DNA of 43,575 nt from a virus, in IMG/VR virus record IMGVR_UViG_3300020215_000025; one strand, 5' to 3'. Position 1 is the stretch's first letter. Every line of letters begins with the position of its first letter. Below are positions 1 to 43,575 of this stretch, piece after piece. The position numbers and the translations under genes were made by a program. Under the pieces are notes generated by a model that saw only the letters and a program-made list of their open reading frames with translations, was not told the DNA's origin and ran no database searches.

Positions 1-127
1 AAAAATTTTATTTCTGAAATTTCTGCGCCGCGCGTGAGAGTGGGGTTAACAATGAAAACCCCCGCCACCCCTCCCCCGATTTACTTTTTGTTAACGGACG
101 ATTGTTCGCTTTGCTCTAGCCCTTGTG
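1..127. repeat. Terminal direct repeat, left copy (identical to 43449..43575); consistent with assembly overlap of a circular or terminally redundant genome
   Basis: First 127 bases read as identical to the last 127 bases of the window. Confidence 0.95.
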
Positions 128-668: not shown

Positions 669-851
669 AAGTCAAGAAAAATCTTGGCACGCTCTCTGTA
701 TTACCGACAATTTAACGCATTCCACGAAGGATATTGCCTGGTTTTACCTAGCGTGTCTGTTTTTAAAACGCACAATGTCTAAAAGGGTAAACGTGTGCCT
801 GCGAACTGCCTAACATTCCGTGCAATTCCTTCATAATGTGCAATCCTATGC

Positions 852-880
852 TTGACAAGCTTATTCAGCTAGTTTATACT
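852..880 (+). promoter_or_regulatory. Sigma70-type early promoter P1
   Basis: TTGACA 852-857, 17-nt spacer, TATACT 875-880; AAGGAG 891-896 and ATG 906 follow. Confidence 0.7.
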
Positions 881-905
881 TCCCTCTAACAAGGAGTAAG
901 ACCGC

Positions 906-5562: not shown

Positions 5563-5576
5563 TTAAACTATTCTAC

Positions 5577-5605
5577 TTGACAAGTATACTAAGCTTTGCT
5601 ATAGT
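5577..5605 (+). promoter_or_regulatory. Sigma70-type promoter P3
   Basis: TTGACA 5577-5582, 17-nt spacer, TATAGT 5600-5605; same CTTGACAAG context as P1/P2. Confidence 0.7.
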
Positions 5606-5642
5606 TGGAATATCCGGTGAGGATATAACCGAAAGGGACGAT

Positions 5643-9519: not shown

Positions 9520-10032
9520 ATGAGTGAAGACGAAGTGGGATTTGATGTAAATGATGAAGTGATTGTTGGAGATTTAACCGATGTGCGGGCTGAGATTCTT
9601 CCTGTTACGCAGAACGTGAAGCTGCGGATTGATAAGGCGTCAATCGCTAAGACTGAATCGGGAGATTTGAAAGGCTTGAAACTGGAATTAGCAATCGCAG
9701 AAGGAATCGAAGTCGCCGGTGAAACGAAGTTTGTGAATAAAAAAGTTTTCACCGGAATTATGGACCTCTGCTTCTATGCAGACCCCGCAACACGTAACAG
9801 TCAGTGGTATAAGTCCAAACAGCACCTGCTCGGATTCAAGCAGTTCATGCAAGCGCTTGATCTCGACATTACGAACGTGAAGATCAATGATGAGTTTTTG
9901 CAAGGGTTAGTTGGGCGTGAGGTTATGGCTAATATTACGCATGAGGAGGATACGGTCAAAGACGAATCAGGAAAAAGACAGAAGACCGGAAACTTTCGAG
10001 AGAAATTGAAGGCGTGGAAGAAAGCAGCGTAA
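9520..10032 (+). CDS. DUF669-like protein (putative ssDNA-binding partner of Sak4)
   Basis: Size and position directly after AAA_24 as in the common nuclease/AAA_24/DUF669 trio; the sequence pattern is only loosely recognisable. Confidence 0.5.
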   Translation: MSEDEVGFDVNDEVIVGDLTDVRAEILPVTQNVKLRIDKASIAKTESGDLKGLKLELAIAEGIEVAGETKFVNKKVFTGIMDLCFYADPATRNSQWYKSKQHLLGFKQFMQALDLDITNVKINDEFLQGLVGREVMANITHEEDTVKDESGKRQKTGNFREKLKAWKKAA

Positions 10033-13350: not shown

Positions 13351-13368
13351 GGGATGCCTTTACCCAAG
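13351..13368 (+). repeat. Junction motif copy
   Basis: GGGATGCCTTTACCCAAG in a noncoding spacer. Confidence 0.6.
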
Positions 13369-13394
13369 ATTAGACTAAAGGATTGCGAGGGCGG

Positions 13395-13586
13395 ATGAAC
13401 AGATTAAAAGAAAAAATAATCATGGCTATCGCTTGGGCGCTTCCTCCAAAGATATTGTTGTGGGCTGTAATTCGGGGCTTTGCTGACGCCACAAGTGGCG
13501 AGAACGGAAACAAGTTTATTGGCGATATTGGCTACAAGGAAGTTTACGACTCCATCGTCAAGAAATACAAGATAACCGGGATGTAG
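13395..13586 (+). CDS. Hypothetical protein with N-terminal hydrophobic segment (63 aa)
   Basis: In frame with track ORF 13383..13586. Confidence 0.5.
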   Translation: MNRLKEKIIMAIAWALPPKILLWAVIRGFADATSGENGNKFIGDIGYKEVYDSIVKKYKITGM

Positions 13587-13603
13587 GATGCCCTTAACCA
13601 AGG
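13586..13603 (+). repeat. Junction motif copy
   Basis: GGATGCCCTTAACCAAGG immediately after the upstream stop and 39 nt before the tnpB-like ATG. Confidence 0.65.
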
Positions 13604-13641
13604 CACCGCGATAGAGGGAGTTTAGGCTATAATTCGCAACC

Positions 13642-14697
13642 ATGAACCGCTCCTATAAGCTAAAAGTATACGGAAACAAGGTAAAGACCGACACGGCGCT
13701 TTATACGCTTAACCGCTTCAAAGCGTTTTCTGAATGCTTTATCGGAAAGCTATTCTTTAATGGGAACCGGCACATAAGCACAGTTGGAATGGGCGACCTT
13801 GCCGACAAAGCGCAAAAAAAATGTTTTGGTGTGGTCAGAAGCCTTCACGCACTTCAGAAAGAAGGCATAAAAACAAATGTTCCTTATAAGCCTGATTTTG
13901 GTTGTCCTGGAATGATCTACCCCGCCAAAAAGGGCGCGTTCGACTATTGGATTTCCGTATCAAATCTTTGGACGAAGCGAAGCGTTGTCGCCCTTCCGGC
14001 CAAATCACATAAAGCGTTAAACGGGGCTTTAAAGAATGGTTGGAAAATAATTCCTAATTGCGAATTGAAAATCATTAACGGAAACCTTTACGCGATTGTT
14101 TTTGTTTCAAAAGAAACAAGTCGAATGAAGAAATTCAACAATGTTCTTGGCTGTGATGTCGGCTTGAAACACTCTGTATCATGCTCTGATCGTTACCTTG
14201 GCCACGGGCTAAAAAGAGCCATCCGTACAGACAGAATAAGAACTGCGGAGCGTCGCCGTCAAGGGCATAAAGTTTCTTCAAAAGTAAAAACGCTTATTAA
14301 ACAGATTCTCGACCGCGAAGCAAAGACAGTCTTGAGACGTTCTCAAAGGTCTTTGTCTGCTATTGCTGTCGAAAGCCCGAAGCGACTAGCAAATCTAAGA
14401 AGCGGAAAGCTTCAAGGATGGGCAAGAAGCTACTTTGCTAACCGACTCCATATCTTAGGCAAGGAAAACGGGGTTTTGATACTGGATATTAATCCTTATC
14501 AGACTTCTCAGACTTGTTCTAAGTGTGGAATTGTGGATAAAAAGAGTCGGCGCAGTCGTGATGAGTTTGTTTGTGCTTCATGCGGTCACAAAGATCACGC
14601 AGACACAAACGCCTCGGTCGTGATAGCGCAAAAGGGCGCTCAAATGCTGGCTAAAAAGTCAGCGATCAGAATGAGTAAATTTCTGGCTCACACCTGA
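13642..14697 (+). CDS. tnpB: Compact TnpB/Cas12-like RuvC nuclease (OrfB zinc-ribbon type), 351 aa
   Basis: RuvC-I LGCDVGLKH, RuvC-II IAVESPKRL, NPYQTSQTCSKCG...FVCASCGHKDHADTNASVVIA (CxxC..CxxC zinc ribbon plus RuvC-III Asp); N-terminal YKLKVYGNK strand typical of TnpB. Confidence 0.85.
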   Translation: MNRSYKLKVYGNKVKTDTALYTLNRFKAFSECFIGKLFFNGNRHISTVGMGDLADKAQKKCFGVVRSLHALQKEGIKTNVPYKPDFGCPGMIYPAKKGAFDYWISVSNLWTKRSVVALPAKSHKALNGALKNGWKIIPNCELKIINGNLYAIVFVSKETSRMKKFNNVLGCDVGLKHSVSCSDRYLGHGLKRAIRTDRIRTAERRRQGHKVSSKVKTLIKQILDREAKTVLRRSQRSLSAIAVESPKRLANLRSGKLQGWARSYFANRLHILGKENGVLILDINPYQTSQTCSKCGIVDKKSRRSRDEFVCASCGHKDHADTNASVVIAQKGAQMLAKKSAIRMSKFLAHT

Positions 14698-14719
14698 GAG
14701 GTTTTAACAAAGGAGTCCT

Positions 14720-16532: not shown

Positions 16533-16651
16533 GTATTATCACTAAGCCGATTAAGTGTAAGCACGGAATAGAGCTAGCGTATTGGCCGTATAGTAATTGC
16601 GTCATGTGTGCGCTGGATGCTTTTAACCAAGGAACCAAGAGGGCAGGATAA
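16529..16651 (+). CDS. Small Cys-containing protein (40 aa)
   Basis: ATGA and TAATG coupling at its ends. Confidence 0.4.
   Translation: MSIITKPIKCKHGIELAYWPYSNCVMCALDAFNQGTKRAG
16615..16632 (+). repeat. Junction motif copy (inside coding sequence)
   Basis: GGATGCTTTTAACCAAGG read through as L-D-A-F-N-Q-G. Confidence 0.65.
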
Positions 16652-16818
16652 TGACCATTGAAACAGCAATAGCGTTAGGAAGCATCAAAGCTAATCTTTC
16701 GCAAATAGCAGGAAGCTTATCAGTTTTGGCTATTGTAGCCGTAGTCCATTTAGCCATAATGGTTGTACGCCTCGGCTTGCATATCAAAAACGTACTATAT
16801 CTACGAGACGGCATTTAA
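16651..16818 (+). CDS. Small membrane protein (55 aa)
   Basis: IAGSLSVLAIVAVVHLAIMVV hydrophobic core. Confidence 0.5.
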   Translation: MTIETAIALGSIKANLSQIAGSLSVLAIVAVVHLAIMVVRLGLHIKNVLYLRDGI

Positions 16819-16833
16819 CAAAGGGCAGGATAA

Positions 16834-17682: not shown

Positions 17683-17837
17683 AAAAAGATTTCATATCAG
17701 GACAGGGACTTTCAGCAAATGCAGGTGTTCGAGGAAATGGAGAAGTGGTAAGCATTTATGGGAATGGCATTTCTCAAATAGAGTGTATTCGATTGAAACA
17801 AGAATGGATTTATAGGTTGCGCGCTTACGCGCGCTAA
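17640..17837 (+). other. -1 frame extension of the AP2 gene (about 64 extra codons) if frameshifting occurs
   Basis: The -1 frame stays open to TAA 17835-17837, shows G-rich first codon positions (about 37 percent by my count), and has no SD-led start of its own. Confidence 0.35.
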
Positions 17838-17865
17838 AAGCATAAACTGCATAAAAAGCAAAAGC
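17819..17865. promoter_or_regulatory. Composite element copy R1: GC hairpin plus AAAAGCATAAA-n-GCATAAAAA double box
   Basis: GCGCGC-ttac-GCGCGC 17819-17834, then AAAAGCATAAACTGCATAAAAAGCAAAAGC 17836-17865. Confidence 0.5.
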
Positions 17866-18072
17866 ATGGTTAATAAGGATGAACAGGTCGCGTTGTGGGT
17901 TGAGTGTTTAAAAATGAGATTTTCTGTTATGACTAACAGGGAAAAAAGATTTGCCAAAGGTGTTATAGATTTCTATGAGAATCAAGGATGGCTTTCAGAT
18001 AAACAGGCGAATGGGGCAAGAAAATTAGCCGTTCGTCTTATCTGTGAACGCGACCCATTTTTTCTTTACTAA
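17866..18072 (+). CDS. Hypothetical protein (68 aa) flanked by inverted copies of the double-box element
   Basis: Track ORF with good first-position G bias. Confidence 0.55.
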   Translation: MVNKDEQVALWVECLKMRFSVMTNREKRFAKGVIDFYENQGWLSDKQANGARKLAVRLICERDPFFLY

Positions 18073-18131
18073 CCGTTTTTAAGGTTTTTATGCCTTTTAT
18101 GCTTTTTGCCCTTGAGCGAAGCGAAAGGGCA
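18062..18131 (+). promoter_or_regulatory. Composite element copy R2 (opposite orientation to R1 and R3)
   Basis: TTCTTTACTAACCGTTTTTAAGGTTTTTATGCCTTTTATGCTTTTT 18062-18107, then hairpin TGCCCTT-11 nt-AAGGGCA 18107-18131. Confidence 0.5.
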
Positions 18132-27896: not shown

Positions 27897-28174
27897 TAGG
27901 AACTCCTCTTCTTCTTCCTTATTGCAGCGCCAAGCGTTGACAGGAGTACGACAAGACTCGCGTATCCGACTCCTGCCTTTGCCGCTTTGCCAGCCCACGG
28001 AACACCGGATAAAGAAGCCACATCTTCAGCTCGTTGCCCGTATTCTTTTGAGCGTTCAACCGCTTCAGTACGGCACGCGGTATCCGCAAAGCACTCGGCG
28101 ACATTCATGCGCTGTTCCTGAAACCAGGCACATCCAGCCAAACTTAGGAATGCGATCAGTACGACGCCCCTCAC
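27896..28174 (-). CDS. Lipoprotein with C-terminal TM segment (u-spanin-like, 92 aa)
   Basis: MRGVVLIAFLSLAGC lipobox; C-terminal GYASLVVLLSTLGAAIRKKKR; GTGA coupling to the upstream gene. Confidence 0.6.
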   Translation of the reverse strand: MRGVVLIAFLSLAGCAWFQEQRMNVAECFADTACRTEAVERSKEYGQRAEDVASLSGVPWAGKAAKAGVGYASLVVLLSTLGAAIRKKKRSS

Positions 28175-28344
28175 TTGATTGCCGCCCGGAGCGTGGCGAG
28201 ACCGGCTCCTGTAAGAAGCGCAACGAGCTGGTCATAAGTTGACTGATCAATGAAACCGGCGTACTTAGCAAATACAAGCACAGCCATAATCGCGGCGATG
28301 ATGTAGGTCTTCTTTCCTGCTAAGAAACTCAGAATCTTATCCAT
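28171..28344 (-). CDS. Small 2-TM membrane protein (57 aa; holin/antiholin-like)
   Basis: AGGAGG upstream; MDKILSFLAGKKTYIIAAIMAVLVFAKYAGFIDQSTYDQLVALLTGAGLATLRAAIK. Confidence 0.55.
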   Translation of the reverse strand: MDKILSFLAGKKTYIIAAIMAVLVFAKYAGFIDQSTYDQLVALLTGAGLATLRAAIK

Positions 28345-31266: not shown

Positions 31267-31623
31267 TTATGGCAGAATCACTGCGATTGCGGTGCAACGA
31301 GCTGTTGCTTGCGTTGTAGCTGCGCCGTCAACGGTTACGTTAAGAACAGTGTTTGCGGACAAGTCGTAGCCTTCGTCTCCAAAGTCCACCAAGTAAACTC
31401 CAACCGCATCTGCATCAGCTTCAAAGAAGCGAGTTCCGCCAGCTCCATCTTCAAGAGCAACTTCACCGCCTCCTCCAACCGCCGCGACCGTTACTTGCAC
31501 GATTGCTTTCTTGATGCGCAGCTTTTTTTCAGCTCCAGGCGCAGCAATAACCGAAGCGTCAACTGCTCCGTTGGCTGCCTCTGCTGTTCCCTGCTGCTTC
31601 TTATAAATCTCAACTCCTTGCAT
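31267..31623 (-). CDS. Small A/G/V-rich beta protein (118 aa)
   Basis: Track ORF directly downstream of the glycosyltransferase block. Confidence 0.5.
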   Translation of the reverse strand: MQGVEIYKKQQGTAEAANGAVDASVIAAPGAEKKLRIKKAIVQVTVAAVGGGGEVALEDGAGGTRFFEADADAVGVYLVDFGDEGYDLSANTVLNVTVDGAATTQATARCTAIAVILP

Positions 31624-32638
31624 GAATAGCCTCCTTGATTAGTCCATTCGCTTTGGCTTGATTAAACATTTCGAGAACTCTGTGATAAATTGTGTGTTTC
31701 TGCATGGCGTATTCATATCCACATTTCGCAATCGCTTCTCTCTCTTCTTCGTGCTCCAGGTAATAGCGAACCTTCAGAACAAGATCGTCTAAGTTGTCGT
31801 AAAGAACGCAGTGTTTACGGTCAACGAAGATGTCTTCAATGGAGGAGATGCGGTCAGTCATGAGGAAATTGCCGGAACCCATAATTTCGAAGCAGCGCAT
31901 ATTGACATCATCTTTCATGGCTACATTGAACGAGATGCGTGACTTTGCGAAAATCTCACTAGCGGCTTCAAATCTGCGTTGCCCAAAGAAAAAGTTTGGA
32001 AATTCTCGGAAAAGACGGTCCAAGGATTCCAAGCGATTCTCCGAATTGACATGACCCACGAACGCGACATCATATTTCTTTGAAGCCATGTTGAATTTAG
32101 GATAGGCCAAGGGCTCGAAAGCGTGAGGCAGCCAGTAGACGGGAGCAGTCAAGCCGTCTTGTTTCATACGCTCAACCGCATCCTTCTGAGCGCAGAATAC
32201 GAGATCAGATTTCTTTGCGACGCTTAGGCGATAGTCATAGCCCAAATGAGTATCTGACGCCCAATAAACGATTGGAGCACCTGACGGGAATGAGCATTCA
32301 TAGGGCAGGACTCCTGTTAGTCCGTCTTCTCCCCAATCAACCCAAACGTGCATATCAAACTGACCATATTGCTTGAATTCATTTCCTTGAGGACGCAGAT
32401 GCACAACTTCAATGCCGTCTGAATCTAAGTTCTCAAGAATCCATTTCGCCATTTCTTCAGCGCGCGGGTCTAATAGATTCTTGGAGTTTGGGAAGGCTCG
32501 AATCAGAGACTTGTTCTGGTTTCGGCGCAGCATTACGTCGCAGAAATGTTGTGTGCGTTGCAAGAACGAATCGACGTAAAGCGGATTTCCGTCATTTCTG
32601 CCAAGTTGAGACTCATACCAAACGGCTATTCTGAGCAT
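31610..32638 (-). CDS. Glycosyltransferase, CgeB/Glyco_trans_1_2-like
   Basis: C-terminal FNVAMKDDVNMRCFEIMGSGNFLMTD...YDNLDDLVLKVRYYLEHEEEREAIAKCGYEYAMQKHT is typical of this family; ATG 32638 after GGAGAGGAAG. Confidence 0.7.
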   Translation of the reverse strand: MLRIAVWYESQLGRNDGNPLYVDSFLQRTQHFCDVMLRRNQNKSLIRAFPNSKNLLDPRAEEMAKWILENLDSDGIEVVHLRPQGNEFKQYGQFDMHVWVDWGEDGLTGVLPYECSFPSGAPIVYWASDTHLGYDYRLSVAKKSDLVFCAQKDAVERMKQDGLTAPVYWLPHAFEPLAYPKFNMASKKYDVAFVGHVNSENRLESLDRLFREFPNFFFGQRRFEAASEIFAKSRISFNVAMKDDVNMRCFEIMGSGNFLMTDRISSIEDIFVDRKHCVLYDNLDDLVLKVRYYLEHEEEREAIAKCGYEYAMQKHTIYHRVLEMFNQAKANGLIKEAIHARS

Positions 32639-33936
32639 GTTACTTCCTCTCCGGTTGTTGAGACCCATGTGGAAGGACACGAAATATCAACCTGCTTCTC
32701 AAAGCAGGACACGAAACTGATTCCGTTCCCTGTCGATTGCGCAAATGTTTGACTAAGCCCAAGCGTTTCAGCGATTGATTTAAGACTCGACATCGTGAAA
32801 GCGTGAAGGTGATCGAAGGAAAGCGGAATCCCAGATGTTACTTCCTCATCAGGACAAGCGATAATTAGCTTTCCTCCAGGACGGAGAGCTTTCATCCAGT
32901 TACGAAGTGTTTCTACAGGGTTGATGATGTGTTCAAGAATATGCCGCGCAATCACGACATCAAATGAGGAATCCTTTACCGGAAGCGGTTTTGAGACATC
33001 GGCCACCATATCAGCTACAGAGCGTTCATTTGAGTATGGGAGAAGCGGAATCTTTTCGCCTTTTGGAACACGATCAATTCCAACAGACTGCTCAACTGTT
33101 TTGCGAAATCCGCAGCCAAGTTCAAGGACTTTATCTTCAGGCGTTACGAGGGAGCGAATTAAGTTTCCTTCAATGTCTTCTGGAACTGTGTTCATATTGC
33201 AATAAGTTATGAGCTGCTGCGAAATAGATGTAAAAAACTCCTTAAAGCCGTGTTTGCGGATAAGCGCTTTGTTTGTGTCTTCACTCATTTCTTTGGAGTT
33301 CCAGCCACCCGCACGATCAGATGTTCCTCGAACACGCTCTCCTGTCTTGAAACCGTGATGAATAATAAAAGCACTTGGGTCAAAAACGAGTCTGTAGCCG
33401 CCTTTACGGAGACGAATAGAGAGATCGAAATCATCACCGCCAGGAAGGGACGCATCAATACCTCCGACCGCATCTAAAGCAGAACGCCTCACAATGACGC
33501 AAAAGAAAATCATCCATCGTAGTTCTGAAAAAGTAACGGGTATATTGGGGTGATAGATTGACTGGAGACCGGCTGCCGTAGTTGTTGATGGACCTACAGC
33601 TCCAACGCTAGGGTCTCTAAAATTACTGAGCAGACGCGAGTAAAAAAGAGCCTGAGACACGACGGGGATGAACGTATCATCATTCTGGAAGCAGACAAAA
33701 GGCGCATCGGACGCTTCAAGCCCGGCTTTAAGACCGCCTTCCCAACCAAGGTTTTGTCCAGTCTTAATAACGCGAAGACCGGGAAACTCCTGAATGGGTT
33801 GATCTCCGTTATTGACAACGATGATTTCTGCAATTCCACTATCAATAACGCTTGTCTTCATGATGGAAGCAATGCACGGATTGAGGAACTGCGGATTATT
33901 CCAAGTCGGGATAATGATAGAAAGAACCGGCTTCAT
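32626..33936 (-). CDS. Bifunctional GT2 glycosyltransferase / class I SAM methyltransferase
   Basis: N-terminal LSIIIPTWNN...FQNDD...GGDDFDLSIRLRKGGYRL (GT-A). C-terminal VLELGCGFRKTV...FDVVIARHILEHI...LRPGGKLII (methyltransferase motifs I and post-I). ATGA coupling at 33936. Confidence 0.8.
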   Translation of the reverse strand: MKPVLSIIIPTWNNPQFLNPCIASIMKTSVIDSGIAEIIVVNNGDQPIQEFPGLRVIKTGQNLGWEGGLKAGLEASDAPFVCFQNDDTFIPVVSQALFYSRLLSNFRDPSVGAVGPSTTTAAGLQSIYHPNIPVTFSELRWMIFFCVIVRRSALDAVGGIDASLPGGDDFDLSIRLRKGGYRLVFDPSAFIIHHGFKTGERVRGTSDRAGGWNSKEMSEDTNKALIRKHGFKEFFTSISQQLITYCNMNTVPEDIEGNLIRSLVTPEDKVLELGCGFRKTVEQSVGIDRVPKGEKIPLLPYSNERSVADMVADVSKPLPVKDSSFDVVIARHILEHIINPVETLRNWMKALRPGGKLIIACPDEEVTSGIPLSFDHLHAFTMSSLKSIAETLGLSQTFAQSTGNGISFVSCFEKQVDISCPSTWVSTTGEEVTCSE

Positions 33937-34706
33937 CCGAGCACCAGATGAGCGGAACCCGCTTCCCACTTCATGGGTTCTCGCTTATGACCCATTGCGT
34001 TAGAGTCTTGATAGTTCATTTCTTTACGCACCTTCTCAACGTAAGCTTCTGTAACTTCTATAGGGTGCGACAAGTGACCAAGCTTCGTTGCTGTGTCCAT
34101 AAACACGCGGAAGCCAGCTTTGCGGGCTTTGTGGCAGAAAAGAACGTCTTCGCCGGTGCCAGAGGAGCACATGAATCGGGGAGCCGGAATTGCGCGAACT
34201 ACCTTCATATTAATAAGGACTGCGCCGAACCCAACCGCATCACATTCGATGAGGCAGTCTTTCGGGTACTTATCTACGTGCCTATTAATGAAGTAGGGAG
34301 TTTGGCTTACGGGGTCCCATCCGTCTTCAATCTCGTAAATGACGGCTTTATGAGGAAAGTTGCGCGTGAAAGCAAGAGGAGCCACCATATCAACCTGGTG
34401 CGCATACAGCCTCTCAAAAAGTTCGTTGGGACAAGTCATATCATCATCAATCATGAAGAGGTAATCGGCTTCGATTTCGAGCGCGAGCTTTGCAGCCTCT
34501 TCACGCGCAAGCGGTGTGAAGATGCGACCTAAATCAATAAAGTGGAATTCAAAACGAGGATTACGTTTCTCTTGAATGCCACGCTCTTGCAGCGTTCCAA
34601 GATAGAAGAAGTTTTCTAAGCGGTTCGTATAGGATTTGCACGGAGGAGAACCCTCGTTCGGAATACAAATCGCTACCTTTACAACCTTTCCTTCTTCTTG
34701 ACTCAC
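33933..34706 (-). CDS. GT2-family glycosyltransferase
   Basis: VAICIPNEG..., DXD region YLFMIDDDMTCP, GEDVLFCHKARKAGFRVFMD. Confidence 0.8.
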   Translation of the reverse strand: MSQEEGKVVKVAICIPNEGSPPCKSYTNRLENFFYLGTLQERGIQEKRNPRFEFHFIDLGRIFTPLAREEAAKLALEIEADYLFMIDDDMTCPNELFERLYAHQVDMVAPLAFTRNFPHKAVIYEIEDGWDPVSQTPYFINRHVDKYPKDCLIECDAVGFGAVLINMKVVRAIPAPRFMCSSGTGEDVLFCHKARKAGFRVFMDTATKLGHLSHPIEVTEAYVEKVRKEMNYQDSNAMGHKREPMKWEAGSAHLVLG

Positions 34707-37846: not shown

Positions 37847-37918
37847 CGCCGCCTGAAAAGCGGCGGCGTAAAAACAAAAGCATAAAAAGCATAAAAATCA
37901 AAAACGGTTTATAAAGAA
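37847..37918 (-). promoter_or_regulatory. Composite element copy R3 upstream of scaffold/capsid genes
   Basis: Hairpin CGCCGCC-8 nt-GGCGGCG 37847-37868; the reverse complement of 37875-37918 matches 18062-18107 at about 39 of 46 aligned positions. Confidence 0.5.
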
Positions 37919-37925
37919 TAAACCG
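37900..37925 (-). terminator. Candidate intrinsic terminator ending the terL-portal transcription unit
   Basis: Minus strand reads CGGTTTAT-tcttt-ATAAACCG followed by TTTTT. Confidence 0.45.
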
Positions 37926-43448: not shown

Positions 43449-43575
43449 AAAAATTTTATTTCTGAAATTTCTGCGCCGCGCGTGAGAGTGGGGTTAACAA
43501 TGAAAACCCCCGCCACCCCTCCCCCGATTTACTTTTTGTTAACGGACGATTGTTCGCTTTGCTCTAGCCCTTGTG
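43449..43575. repeat. Terminal direct repeat, right copy (identical to 1..127)
   Basis: See left copy. Confidence 0.95.

What the first reader, a model, noticed from the sequence alone, without database searches (positions are those of the whole stretch)
13586..14715. Compact, apparently catalytically intact TnpB/Cas12-like RuvC nuclease sits as a lone cassette in the phage middle arm, with no TnpA, IS ends or guide RNA that I could find
- The 351-aa ORF has the full TnpB signature. It has an N-terminal YKLKVYGNK strand, RuvC-I LGCDVGLKH and RuvC-II IAVESPKRL. It also has a CSKCG...CASCG zinc ribbon and RuvC-III HADTNAS.
- All three acidic residues are present, so it looks like an active nuclease rather than a nuclease-dead TldR-type repressor.
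- At 351 aa it is at the small end of known TnpB sizes.
- I saw no Y1 or serine TnpA anywhere in this complete genome, and no subterminal IS200/605-type hairpins.
- The 3' end of the ORF and the 22 nt before the next gene show no stable structure, although that is where an omega RNA scaffold normally sits.
- The gene lacks an SD. A perfect TATAAT at 13628-13633 lies 8 nt before the ATG, so the mRNA may be leaderless.
- The cassette is bounded on both sides by the junction motif used at other gene boundaries (13586-13603 and 14696-14715).
- A domesticated or differently guided RNA-guided nuclease in a lytic-looking phage could act in inter-phage competition, homing or gene regulation.
Basis: partly seen in the sequence, partly recalled or inferred. 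Interest (0 to 1): 0.8.

Follow-up and report, generated by a model that had tools for sequence, protein, structure and literature searches.

The report
Phage TnpB nuclease with hidden guide RNA

Summary
The 351-aa ORF (13642-14697, +) is confirmed as an intact TnpB/Cas12f-fold nuclease. Its D172-E244-D321 triad and CxxC/CxxC zinc ribbon are invariant in 31 relatives, and the AlphaFold model (pLDDT 91.7) matches Cas12f and TnpB structures.

The "no guide RNA, no structure" claim is not supported.
- A conserved, covarying RNA structure lies inside the ORF at 14302-14431.
- A 3' module (14631-14685) has a stem, a hairpin and a pseudoknot (CAGAA/TTCTG).
- A covariance model built from ten relatives, without this window, hits only this site (36.5 bits, E 1e-5).
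- In four close relatives, homology starts at the ATG and stops exactly after TTCTG.
- The cassette is therefore the ORF body plus scaffold. The candidate guide is 14686-14705, and the last codons are flank-encoded.

No TnpA, integrase or separate left end exists here. More distant clade members do have a ~105-nt left end and a sharp right end (…GTACCTG|) in at least seven contexts.

The clade is almost absent from 185,579 species genomes and sits in unrelated phages.

Best reading: a TnpB-only (IS1341-like) omega-RNA nuclease cassette that persists in phages by RNA-guided homing. It is a new member of a known kind, of moderate interest.

The parts
13642..14697 (+). tnpB ORF, 351 aa, with the full WED-REC-RuvC-TNB fold
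14155..14157 (+). RuvC-I aspartate D172 (LGCDVG)
   Evidence: Invariant in 31 sequences. Aligns with the GVDMG motif of OsCas12f.
14371..14373 (+). RuvC-II glutamate E244 (AVESP)
   Evidence: Invariant. Aligns with the catalytic E of Cas12f.
14515..14583 (+). Zinc ribbon C292-x2-C295 ... C311-x2-C314 (TNB domain)
   Evidence: Invariant cysteines. Pfam PF07282.
14602..14604 (+). RuvC-III aspartate D321 (HADTNA)
   Evidence: Invariant. Aligns with the ADFNA motif of Cas12f.
14302..14431 (+). Conserved RNA structure inside the ORF (helices H1-H4), the presumed 5' domain of the omega RNA. In this window H2, H3, H4b and H4c are kept, while H1 (4/12 pairs) and H4a (2/6 pairs) are broken.
   Evidence: Sliding RNAalifold windows give z down to -25. 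The count of structure pairs: 79.8% of cells paired versus 31-45% for slid controls, and covariation score 0.382 versus about 0.11.
14631..14685 (+). Omega-RNA 3' module. Stem S1 is CTCA (14639-14642) with TGAG (14672-14675). A hairpin is 14646-14652 with 14657-14663. The pseudoknot is CAGAA (14667-14671) with TTCTG (14681-14685). The module ends the scaffold and the conserved cassette.
   Evidence: Manual structural alignment. Pseudoknot position 4 is G-C in 20 sequences and A-T in 6, with no mismatch. S1 is 4/4 Watson-Crick in 23 of 26 sequences, versus a mean of 10.5 with shuffled partners. The covariance model built without this window scores 36.5 bits, E 1.1e-5, and this is its only hit.
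14686..14705 (+). Candidate guide segment (GCTCACACCTGAGAGGTTTT). This is flanking DNA that also supplies the last three codons and the stop codon of the ORF.
   Evidence: Homology to L002, L126, L128 and L129 ends exactly at 14685. There is no second match in the window. Its role as a guide is inferred from the canonical TnpB arrangement.
13586..13641 (+). Left flank up to the ATG. It holds a copy of a repeated phage intergenic motif (13586-13603) and TATAAT (13628-13633). It is not a recognisable IS left end.

Best explanation
This is a minimal TnpB-only (IS1341-like) OMEGA cassette living in a phage genome.

Anatomy:
- The ORF encodes an intact RuvC nuclease.
- The same DNA, read as RNA on the same strand, encodes the omega-RNA scaffold: a structured domain at 14302-14431 and a stem/hairpin/pseudoknot module at 14631-14685.
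- The roughly 16-20 nt that follow (14686 onward) would serve as the guide.

Inferred mechanism:
- TnpB bound to this RNA would cut DNA that carries the same flank sequence next to a TAM. Such DNA is the same locus in a co-infecting or recombinant phage genome that lacks the cassette.
- Repair by recombination with a cassette-bearing genome would copy the cassette back in.
- This matches the retention/homing role shown for TnpB, and resembles free-standing homing endonuclease genes of phages.

In this subgroup the cassette has no separate left end and no TnpA, so TnpA-type transposition is not expected from this copy.

What is shown and what is inferred:
- Shown here: family membership, intact active-site residues, the conserved covarying RNA structure, the exact right boundary, the absence of TnpA, and the phage-restricted, patchy distribution.
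- Inferred: that the RNA is made, that 14686-14705 acts as the guide, the TAM, and that cleavage and homing occur.
For: - Family and fold: profile hits, PDB profile hits to Cas12f and TnpB, an AF2 model with pLDDT 91.7, and Foldseek top hits AsCas12f (E 1e-16, TMq 0.63-0.65) and ISDra2 TnpB (TMq 0.58).
- Active site: the triad and zinc ribbon are invariant.
- Selection: dN/dS is 0.10-0.15 among close relatives, and dS is saturated against this window.
- RNA structure:
  - Covariation in region A.
  - Covariation in S1 and the pseudoknot.
  - A single covariance-model hit at 14631-14685.
  - Thermodynamic z-scores.
- Boundaries: among WIN, L002, L126, L128 and L129, homology starts at the ATG and ends after TTCTG. 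The ORFs then run 12-71 nt into unrelated flank.
- Mobility of the clade:
  - A sharp right end ...GTACCTG| in at least 7 different flanks and a shared ~105-nt left end.
  - Two copies on one contig.
  - The gene is carried by phages that share no other gene with this one.
- Distribution: only one distant hit in representative genomes of 185,579 species, against 282 relatives in IMG/VR.
- Literature: most tnpB genes lack tnpA, and TnpB promotes retention by homing-like cut-and-copy (PMC10055086). IS1341 encodes TnpB alone, and TnpB occurs in viruses (PMC10691335; PMC13565253).
Against: - No left end and no TAM could be defined for this copy.
- No "empty site" allele was found for this cassette or for two relatives.
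- Two helices of the 5' RNA domain that relatives keep are broken here: H1 at 4/12 pairs and H4a at 2/6 pairs. The RNA may be impaired or shortened.
- The gene has no SD sequence.
- No Rfam omega-RNA-type family matches.
- The NCBIfam TnpB score of 82.9 bits is below the curated cut-off of 100.
- No expression or cleavage data exist.
Confidence: 0.55

Rival explanations
1. Domesticated phage tool. The cassette is fixed in this phage lineage and its guide is used for the phage's benefit. It might cut or silence a competitor phage or a host locus, or regulate the neighbouring gene, rather than merely propagate itself.
For: - There is no left end and no TnpA, and the copy is single.
- The gene is embedded among early genes. 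Relatives are translationally coupled to their neighbours.
- The clade is restricted to phages.
- L001 and L122 are distantly related phages that carry the gene in the same genome arm.
- Purifying selection is evident.
- 18 nt of the candidate guide match a prohead-protease gene of another phage group.
Against: - Immediate neighbours are never conserved, and the gene occurs in many unrelated phages. That pattern suggests a mobile passenger.
- The guide is simply whatever lies downstream and differs in every relative.
- About 1-2 exact 18-nt matches are expected by chance in a collection of that size, and only one independent family was hit.
- The catalytic residues are intact, unlike TldR-type regulators.
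Confidence: 0.22
2. Stranded, decaying IS remnant. This would be a TnpB-only element that lost its left end and is no longer mobile or useful, with the ORF not yet inactivated.
For: - No TnpA is present and no left end.
- The N-terminus is two codons shorter than in relatives.
- Helices H1 and H4a of the RNA are broken in this copy only.
- There is no SD sequence.
- Some clade copies carry internal stops (L011, L108).
Against: - The 351-aa ORF is intact, with every invariant residue kept, despite saturated synonymous divergence from its nearest relatives.
- The 3' RNA module is perfectly kept, including compensatory changes in its hairpin.
- The whole left-end-less subgroup (at least five members in different phages) is under purifying selection, with dN/dS 0.10-0.15.
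Confidence: 0.15
3. One reading: a TnpB that has no cis-encoded guide RNA, and that works unguided or with an RNA encoded elsewhere in the genome.
For: No Rfam family matches. There is no non-coding space downstream, since the next gene starts 22 nt after the stop codon.
Against: - The scaffold is inside the ORF.
- No second copy of the 3' module exists elsewhere in the genome. The next-best covariance-model hit scores 11 bits, and the loose pattern scan found nothing similar.
Confidence: 0.05

Closest known systems
TnpB-only IS200/IS605-family elements (IS1341 type) with an overlapping omega RNA (OMEGA systems; e.g. ISDra2 TnpB, the ISGst elements)
   Same: - The protein fold, D-E-D RuvC triad and zinc ribbon are the same.
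- The RNA scaffold overlaps the 3' end of tnpB on the same strand, ends in a pseudoknot next to the guide, and the guide is taken from the DNA flanking the right end.
- There is no tnpA in the element.
- More distant clade members have defined left and right ends and sit in many contexts.
   Different: - The protein is smaller (351 aa, against 408 aa for ISDra2, from my own knowledge).
- The scaffold lies entirely inside the ORF, and the right boundary falls 12 nt before the stop codon, so the C-terminal residues come from the flank.
- This subgroup has no left end outside the ORF.
- It is single-copy.
- The lineage is found almost only on phage contigs.
- Profile scores are below NCBI's curated cut-off.
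Cas12f (type V-F CRISPR effectors, e.g. AsCas12f, OsCas12f)
   Same: These are the best structural and sequence matches among solved structures. They are miniature RuvC nucleases with a TNB zinc ribbon.
   Different: There is no CRISPR array, no cas1/2/4 and no tracrRNA/repeat arrangement in the genome. The RNA is a single scaffold fused to a flank-derived guide.
TldR (TnpB-like nuclease-dead repressors, some prophage-encoded)
   Same: These are phage-borne TnpB relatives with a cis-encoded guide RNA and no transposase.
   Different: TldR proteins have lost the RuvC active site and carry a guide against a host promoter. Here the triad is invariant and the guide is merely the downstream flank.
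Free-standing homing endonuclease genes of phages (Seg, Mob and related families)
   Same: This is a functional analogy. Each is a lone nuclease gene wedged between early or middle phage genes, patchily distributed among phages, and expected to spread by cutting cassette-less genomes during co-infection.
   Different: The proteins are unrelated, and those enzymes recognise DNA by protein contacts. Here recognition would be through RNA.

Membership tests
TnpB (OMEGA RNA-guided nuclease) | Split RuvC domain with a D-E-D catalytic triad | tested here: met
   D172, E244 and D321 are invariant in 31 sequences. They align with the RuvC I/II/III motifs of solved Cas12f/TnpB structures.
TnpB (OMEGA RNA-guided nuclease) | C4 zinc ribbon (TNB) between RuvC-II and RuvC-III | tested here: met
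   PF07282 at 1.5e-15, above the cut-off. C292, C295, C311 and C314 are invariant.
TnpB (OMEGA RNA-guided nuclease) | Full-length WED-REC-RuvC fold | tested here: met
   The AF2 model has pLDDT 91.7. Foldseek aligns it over the full length with AsCas12f (TMq 0.63-0.65) and with ISDra2 and ISFba1 TnpB (TMq 0.53-0.58).
TnpB (OMEGA RNA-guided nuclease) | Curated family profile score | tested here: inconclusive
   NCBIfam guided_TnpB gives E 2.6e-23, but 82.9 bits is below the cut-off of 100 and only residues 120-331 are covered.
TnpB (OMEGA RNA-guided nuclease) | Cis-encoded omega RNA overlapping the 3' end of the gene, with a flank-derived guide | tested here: met
   Conserved covarying structure. 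Homology ends exactly at the pseudoknot. The covariance model hits at 36.5 bits. Transcription and binding were not tested.
TnpB (OMEGA RNA-guided nuclease) | RNA-guided, TAM-dependent DNA cleavage | not testable with these tools
   This needs biochemistry or interference assays. The TAM could not be inferred for this copy.
IS200/IS605 or IS607 autonomous element | Y1 or serine TnpA next to tnpB | tested here: not met
   No PF01797, PF00239 or PF00589 hit in any ORF of at least 55 aa of the genome.
IS1341-type (TnpB-only) element | Defined left and right ends flanking a lone tnpB | tested here: inconclusive
   The right boundary is defined at 14685. This subgroup has no left end upstream of the ATG. 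Related clade members have both ends.
IS1341-type (TnpB-only) element | Evidence of mobility (same element in different contexts, or multiple copies) | tested here: met
   This holds for the clade: at least 7 different right flanks, two copies per contig, and unrelated host phages. For this copy itself there is a single copy and no empty site was found.
Cas12f / type V CRISPR | Adjacent CRISPR array and adaptation or tracr components | tested here: not met
   No array in the tandem or direct repeat scans. No Cas1, Cas2 or Cas4 domains.
TldR (nuclease-dead TnpB-like repressor) | Loss of RuvC catalytic residues | tested here: not met
   The triad is intact and invariant.

The most novel reading that the evidence does not exclude
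This phage-restricted TnpB lineage would act as an RNA-guided free-standing homing or exclusion nuclease.
- The cassette has no left end and no transposase, and consists only of the ORF plus an ORF-embedded omega RNA.
- It would read its guide from whatever lies downstream.
- It would use that guide to destroy or convert cassette-less relatives during co-infection, as an RNA-programmed version of phage marker exclusion.
- It would move between unrelated phages without any transposase.
Probability: 0.3. Interest if true: 0.7.

Novelty: new member of a known kind. Interest (0 to 1): 0.42.

Why it matters
- It removes the apparent anomaly of an active TnpB with no guide. The guide-RNA scaffold can be missed when it lies wholly inside the coding sequence and no intergenic space follows.
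- It documents a compact (about 340-380 aa) TnpB lineage with a defined RNA 3' module and scaffold/guide junction. That is the information needed to test it as a miniature editor.
- The lineage is phage-restricted and has neither transposase nor left end. This makes it a good system for asking whether TnpB alone can drive homing between co-infecting viruses.

Tried and rejected
- Near-identical DNA in INPHARED phages: none. tblastn finds only phage TnpBs at 31% identity or less.
- Rfam at gathering and permissive thresholds: no omega-RNA-type hit.
- The tool's default RNAalifold on MAFFT alignments missed the structures. They appeared with a codon-anchored alignment and ribosum scoring, and were then checked with the count of structure pairs.
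- Search for relatives of this phage lacking the cassette, using the neighbouring proteins: nothing usable. One contig shares only the upstream 63-aa gene.
- Search for empty sites or targets with guide sequences in IMG/VR:
  - The 18-mer from this window hit one family of six contigs, at chance level.
  - Two relatives' 20-mers hit only their own contigs.
- TAM inference: the left flanks of three full copies and one left-end remnant of the distant relatives read AATGA/AATAA. The five close relatives show no consensus, so no TAM is claimed.
- Loose pattern scan for extra scaffold copies in the window: only chance-like hits.
- The idea that the 18-nt GGATGC..TTAACCAAGG motif is the IS left end or the TnpB target was rejected. 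It also occurs at two tnpB-less sites and does not resemble the guide.
- The Cas12 'hacker'/Cas12p comparison was rejected because that system has a CRISPR array.
- Sigma-70 promoter scan: the TATAAT at 13628 has no acceptable -35 and is not listed.
Full report
**The observation**

The window is a complete phage genome. Its ends (1-127 and 43449-43575) are identical, which indicates an assembly overlap of a circular or terminally redundant 43,448-bp molecule. It has a + strand early/middle arm up to about 18.4 kb and a - strand structural arm.

The ORF 13642-14697 (+, 351 aa) exists as described, and all quoted motifs are in its translation.
- Pfam hits the Cas12f1-like TNB domain (1.5e-15), NCBIfam hits guided_TnpB (2.6e-23, but 82.9 bits against a cut-off of 100, covering residues 120-331 only), and PHROG 506 'transposase' hits at 1.7e-27.
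- TATAAT at 13628-13633 lies 8 nt before the ATG, and the lack of an SD within 5-12 nt is real.
- The promoter scan does not list this site, because there is no acceptable -35.

**The protein**

A search of 5.8 billion proteins returned 95 relatives of 40-70% identity and 340-380 aa.
- In an alignment of 31 of them, D172, E244, D321 and the four zinc-ribbon cysteines are invariant.
- A profile of that alignment hits solved Cas12f and TnpB structures. The three acidic residues sit on the RuvC I/II/III motifs.
- An AlphaFold2 model (pLDDT 91.7, pTM 0.77) aligns over its full length with AsCas12f (E 1e-16, TMq 0.63-0.65) and with ISDra2 and ISFba1 TnpB (TMq 0.53-0.58).
- Among close relatives dN/dS is 0.10-0.15. 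Synonymous sites are saturated between the window and its nearest relatives, yet the ORF is intact.

So the protein part of the finding stands: a small, apparently active TnpB.

**The RNA**

The claim that there is no guide RNA and no structure does not stand.

Sliding RNAalifold on a codon-anchored alignment of 26 clade members showed a strong conserved structure at codons about 211-260. The consensus energy was -22 to -26 kcal/mol, against about -1 to -3.5 for column shuffles, giving z down to -25.

I counted the proposed pairs on an independent MAFFT alignment (A6).
- 79.8% of cells are paired, versus 31-45% when partners are slid by 1-3 columns.
- 167 cells have changes on both sides, versus 31-50 in the slid controls.
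- The covariation score is 0.382, versus about 0.11 for slid partners and 0.219 for shuffles (0/500 shuffles reach the observed value).
- In the window this region is 14302-14431.

The variable C-terminal tail of the protein hides a second RNA module. After the conserved AAGGG (Lys-Gly codons) comes a short stem S1, an optional hairpin, an invariant (A)TCAG, the 3' strand of S1, an A-rich linker, and a 5-nt segment complementary to CAGNN. That last pairing forms a pseudoknot.
- In the window, S1 is CTCA (14639-14642) with TGAG (14672-14675).
- The hairpin is 14646-14652 with 14657-14663.
- The pseudoknot is CAGAA (14667-14671) with TTCTG (14681-14685).

Across 26 sequences the module covaries.
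- Pseudoknot position 4 is G-C in 20 sequences and A-T in 6, with no mismatch. Observed combinations include CAGGT/ACCTG, CAGAA/TTCTG, CAGAT/ATCTG and CAGGA/TCCTG.
- S1 is a perfect 4-bp Watson-Crick helix in 23 of 26 sequences. With shuffled partners the mean is 10.5 and the maximum 17 in 1000 trials.

A covariance model built from ten relatives, without the window, finds exactly one significant site in the whole genome: 14631-14685 (+), 36.5 bits, E 1.1e-5. The next best hit scores 11 bits.

The window sequence alone also folds better than shuffles. 14631-14690 gives -17.4 kcal/mol (z -2.5) and 14293-14690 gives -129.8 kcal/mol (z -3.75). Rfam has no matching family.

**Boundaries**

Four close relatives (L002, L126, L128, L129; 62-70% amino-acid identity) lie among unrelated neighbouring genes.
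- Nucleotide homology to the window begins at the start codon and ends exactly after TTCTG.
- S1 and the hairpin show compensatory changes: CTCA/TGAG, CCCA/TGGG and ACCA/TGGT for S1, and GCTGGCT/AGTCAGC, GCTTGC/GCAGGC and GCTTCT/AGAAGC for the hairpin.
- The ORFs then run on for 12-71 nt into unrelated sequence until a stop codon happens to occur.

The conserved cassette is therefore the ORF body plus the scaffold. The right boundary in the window is 14685|14686, and the last three codons and the stop codon are flank-encoded.

By analogy with canonical TnpB, where the scaffold is followed by a guide copied from the DNA flanking the right end, the guide would be 14686-14705 (GCTCACACCTGAGAGGTTTT). 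It has no second match in the genome.

There is no left end upstream of the ATG. The 55 nt between the upstream stop codon and the ATG carry one of three copies of a phage intergenic motif (13352, 13586, 16615). The 13586 copy stays similar to the tnpB-less copy at 16615 for about 55 nt. That stretch therefore looks like phage sequence rather than transposon sequence.

**The clade elsewhere**

More distant members (about 42-50% identity) look like ordinary TnpB-only insertion sequences.
- They have a shared ~105-nt left end starting GGCTTGTGT.
- They have a right end finishing ...TTCGTACCTG|, after which at least seven different flanks follow.
- Two copies can occur on one contig. Some copies carry internal stop codons.
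- None has a tnpA between its ends.

The clade sits on contigs with portal, terminase and tail genes, and IMG/VR holds 282 relatives. A scan of one genome from each of 185,579 bacterial and archaeal species with clade-specific motifs found a single distant hit on a MAG contig.

Host phages mostly share nothing else with this window. The exceptions are L001, whose tail genes are 40-60% identical, and L122, which shares RusA and a neighbouring gene. Both carry the gene in the same genome arm but with different immediate neighbours.

This phage has only distant relatives among isolates, with TerL and the capsid protein at 30% identity or less.

**No transposase**

I scanned all ORFs of at least 55 aa on the coding strand of each arm, apart from one short ORF (28065-28277, -) that was left out, against Pfam. 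The hits were AAA_25, PDDEXK_1, AAA_24, RusA, glycosyltransferases and a methyltransferase. There was no Y1 transposase, serine recombinase or integrase.

**Mechanism**

The best-supported reading is a minimal OMEGA cassette of the IS1341 (TnpB-only) type.
- Most tnpB genes lack tnpA. TnpB has been shown to promote retention of its element by cutting the empty site, followed by recombinational copying (PMC10055086).
- IS1341 encodes TnpB alone, and TnpB genes occur in viruses (PMC10691335; PMC13565253).
- In a phage without TnpA or a left end, the same activity would amount to RNA-guided homing, or exclusion of cassette-less genomes during co-infection. That would be analogous to free-standing homing endonuclease genes.
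- This step is inference. No empty site, TAM or expression evidence was obtained.

**Evidence against full function in this copy**

- Helices H1 (4/12 pairs) and H4a (2/6 pairs) of the 5' RNA domain are broken in the window. Most clade members keep H1 (10-12/12), and among the close relatives only L129 does (12/12). The close relatives L002, L126, L128 and L129 all keep H4a (6/6).
- The N-terminus is two codons shorter than in relatives.
- There is no SD sequence.

These points keep a "stranded remnant" reading alive, at about 0.15.

A "domesticated weapon or regulator" reading (about 0.22) is not excluded. Its only specific support is an 18-nt match of the candidate guide to a prohead-protease gene in six related IMG/VR contigs. 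That is about what chance predicts for a collection of that size.

**Verdict**

The feature is a new member, from an undescribed phage-restricted lineage, of a known kind: a TnpB-only OMEGA element. Its unusually compact layout is the scaffold entirely inside the ORF, the right boundary inside the ORF, and no left end. Interest is moderate.

Noticed in passing
window 13352-13369, 13586-13603, 16615-16632 (+): An 18-nt motif GGATGCyyTTAaCCAAGg occurs three times on the + strand (0/100 shuffles reach three matches). The 13586 and 16615 copies stay similar for about 55 nt, including GAGGG and (T/G)ATAAT. Its function is unknown; it may be a regulatory or intergenic repeat of the phage.
   Followed up: partly
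window 14703-14713, 16814-16824 and seven near-matches on the + strand: The core TTTAACNAAGG gives 10 hits against 4.4 expected, nine of them in the early arm and several 6-10 nt before start codons.
   Followed up: partly
window 1-127 and 43449-43575: The terminal 127 nt are identical. This is an assembly overlap of a circular or terminally redundant genome of 43,448 bp.
   Followed up: no
window 851-886, 1127-1162, 5575-5610 (+): Three copies of a sigma-70-like promoter (ACTTGACAAG..N..TATAtT), probably early promoters.
   Followed up: no
window 17833-18109 and 37876-37921: AAAAGCATAAA-rich direct and inverted repeats lie at the junction of the two divergent arms and again at 37.9 kb. They could be bidirectional regulatory or origin-like sequence.
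   Followed up: no
window 31610-34706 (-): Two glycosyltransferase genes and a methyltransferase-domain gene lie inside the structural arm.
   Followed up: no
L130-L135 (e.g. L131 3528-3545): 18 nt of the candidate guide (14686-14703) match exactly a conserved site in a prohead-protease gene of six related IMG/VR contigs, and similarity stops at nt 19. About 1-2 such hits are expected by chance.
   Followed up: partly
L113 384-475: The right end of a related element is partly duplicated in tandem (CAGCATCTTCGTACCTG twice).
   Followed up: no
L006 about 9880-10000, L086 about 1150-1267, L122 about 2440-2570: A small upstream ORF (…KIGRKGGKSR…GGRPKK) overlaps the 5' end of tnpB in another frame in three different loci. 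It may be part of that sub-lineage's cassette.
   Followed up: no
L104 and L108 (contig VFSW01000274.1); L092 and L113 (contig Ga0163150_10002405); L114 3649: Two clade copies occur on one contig, one of them with an internal stop codon. There is also a solo left-end remnant. These are signs of turnover typical of insertion sequences.
   Followed up: partly
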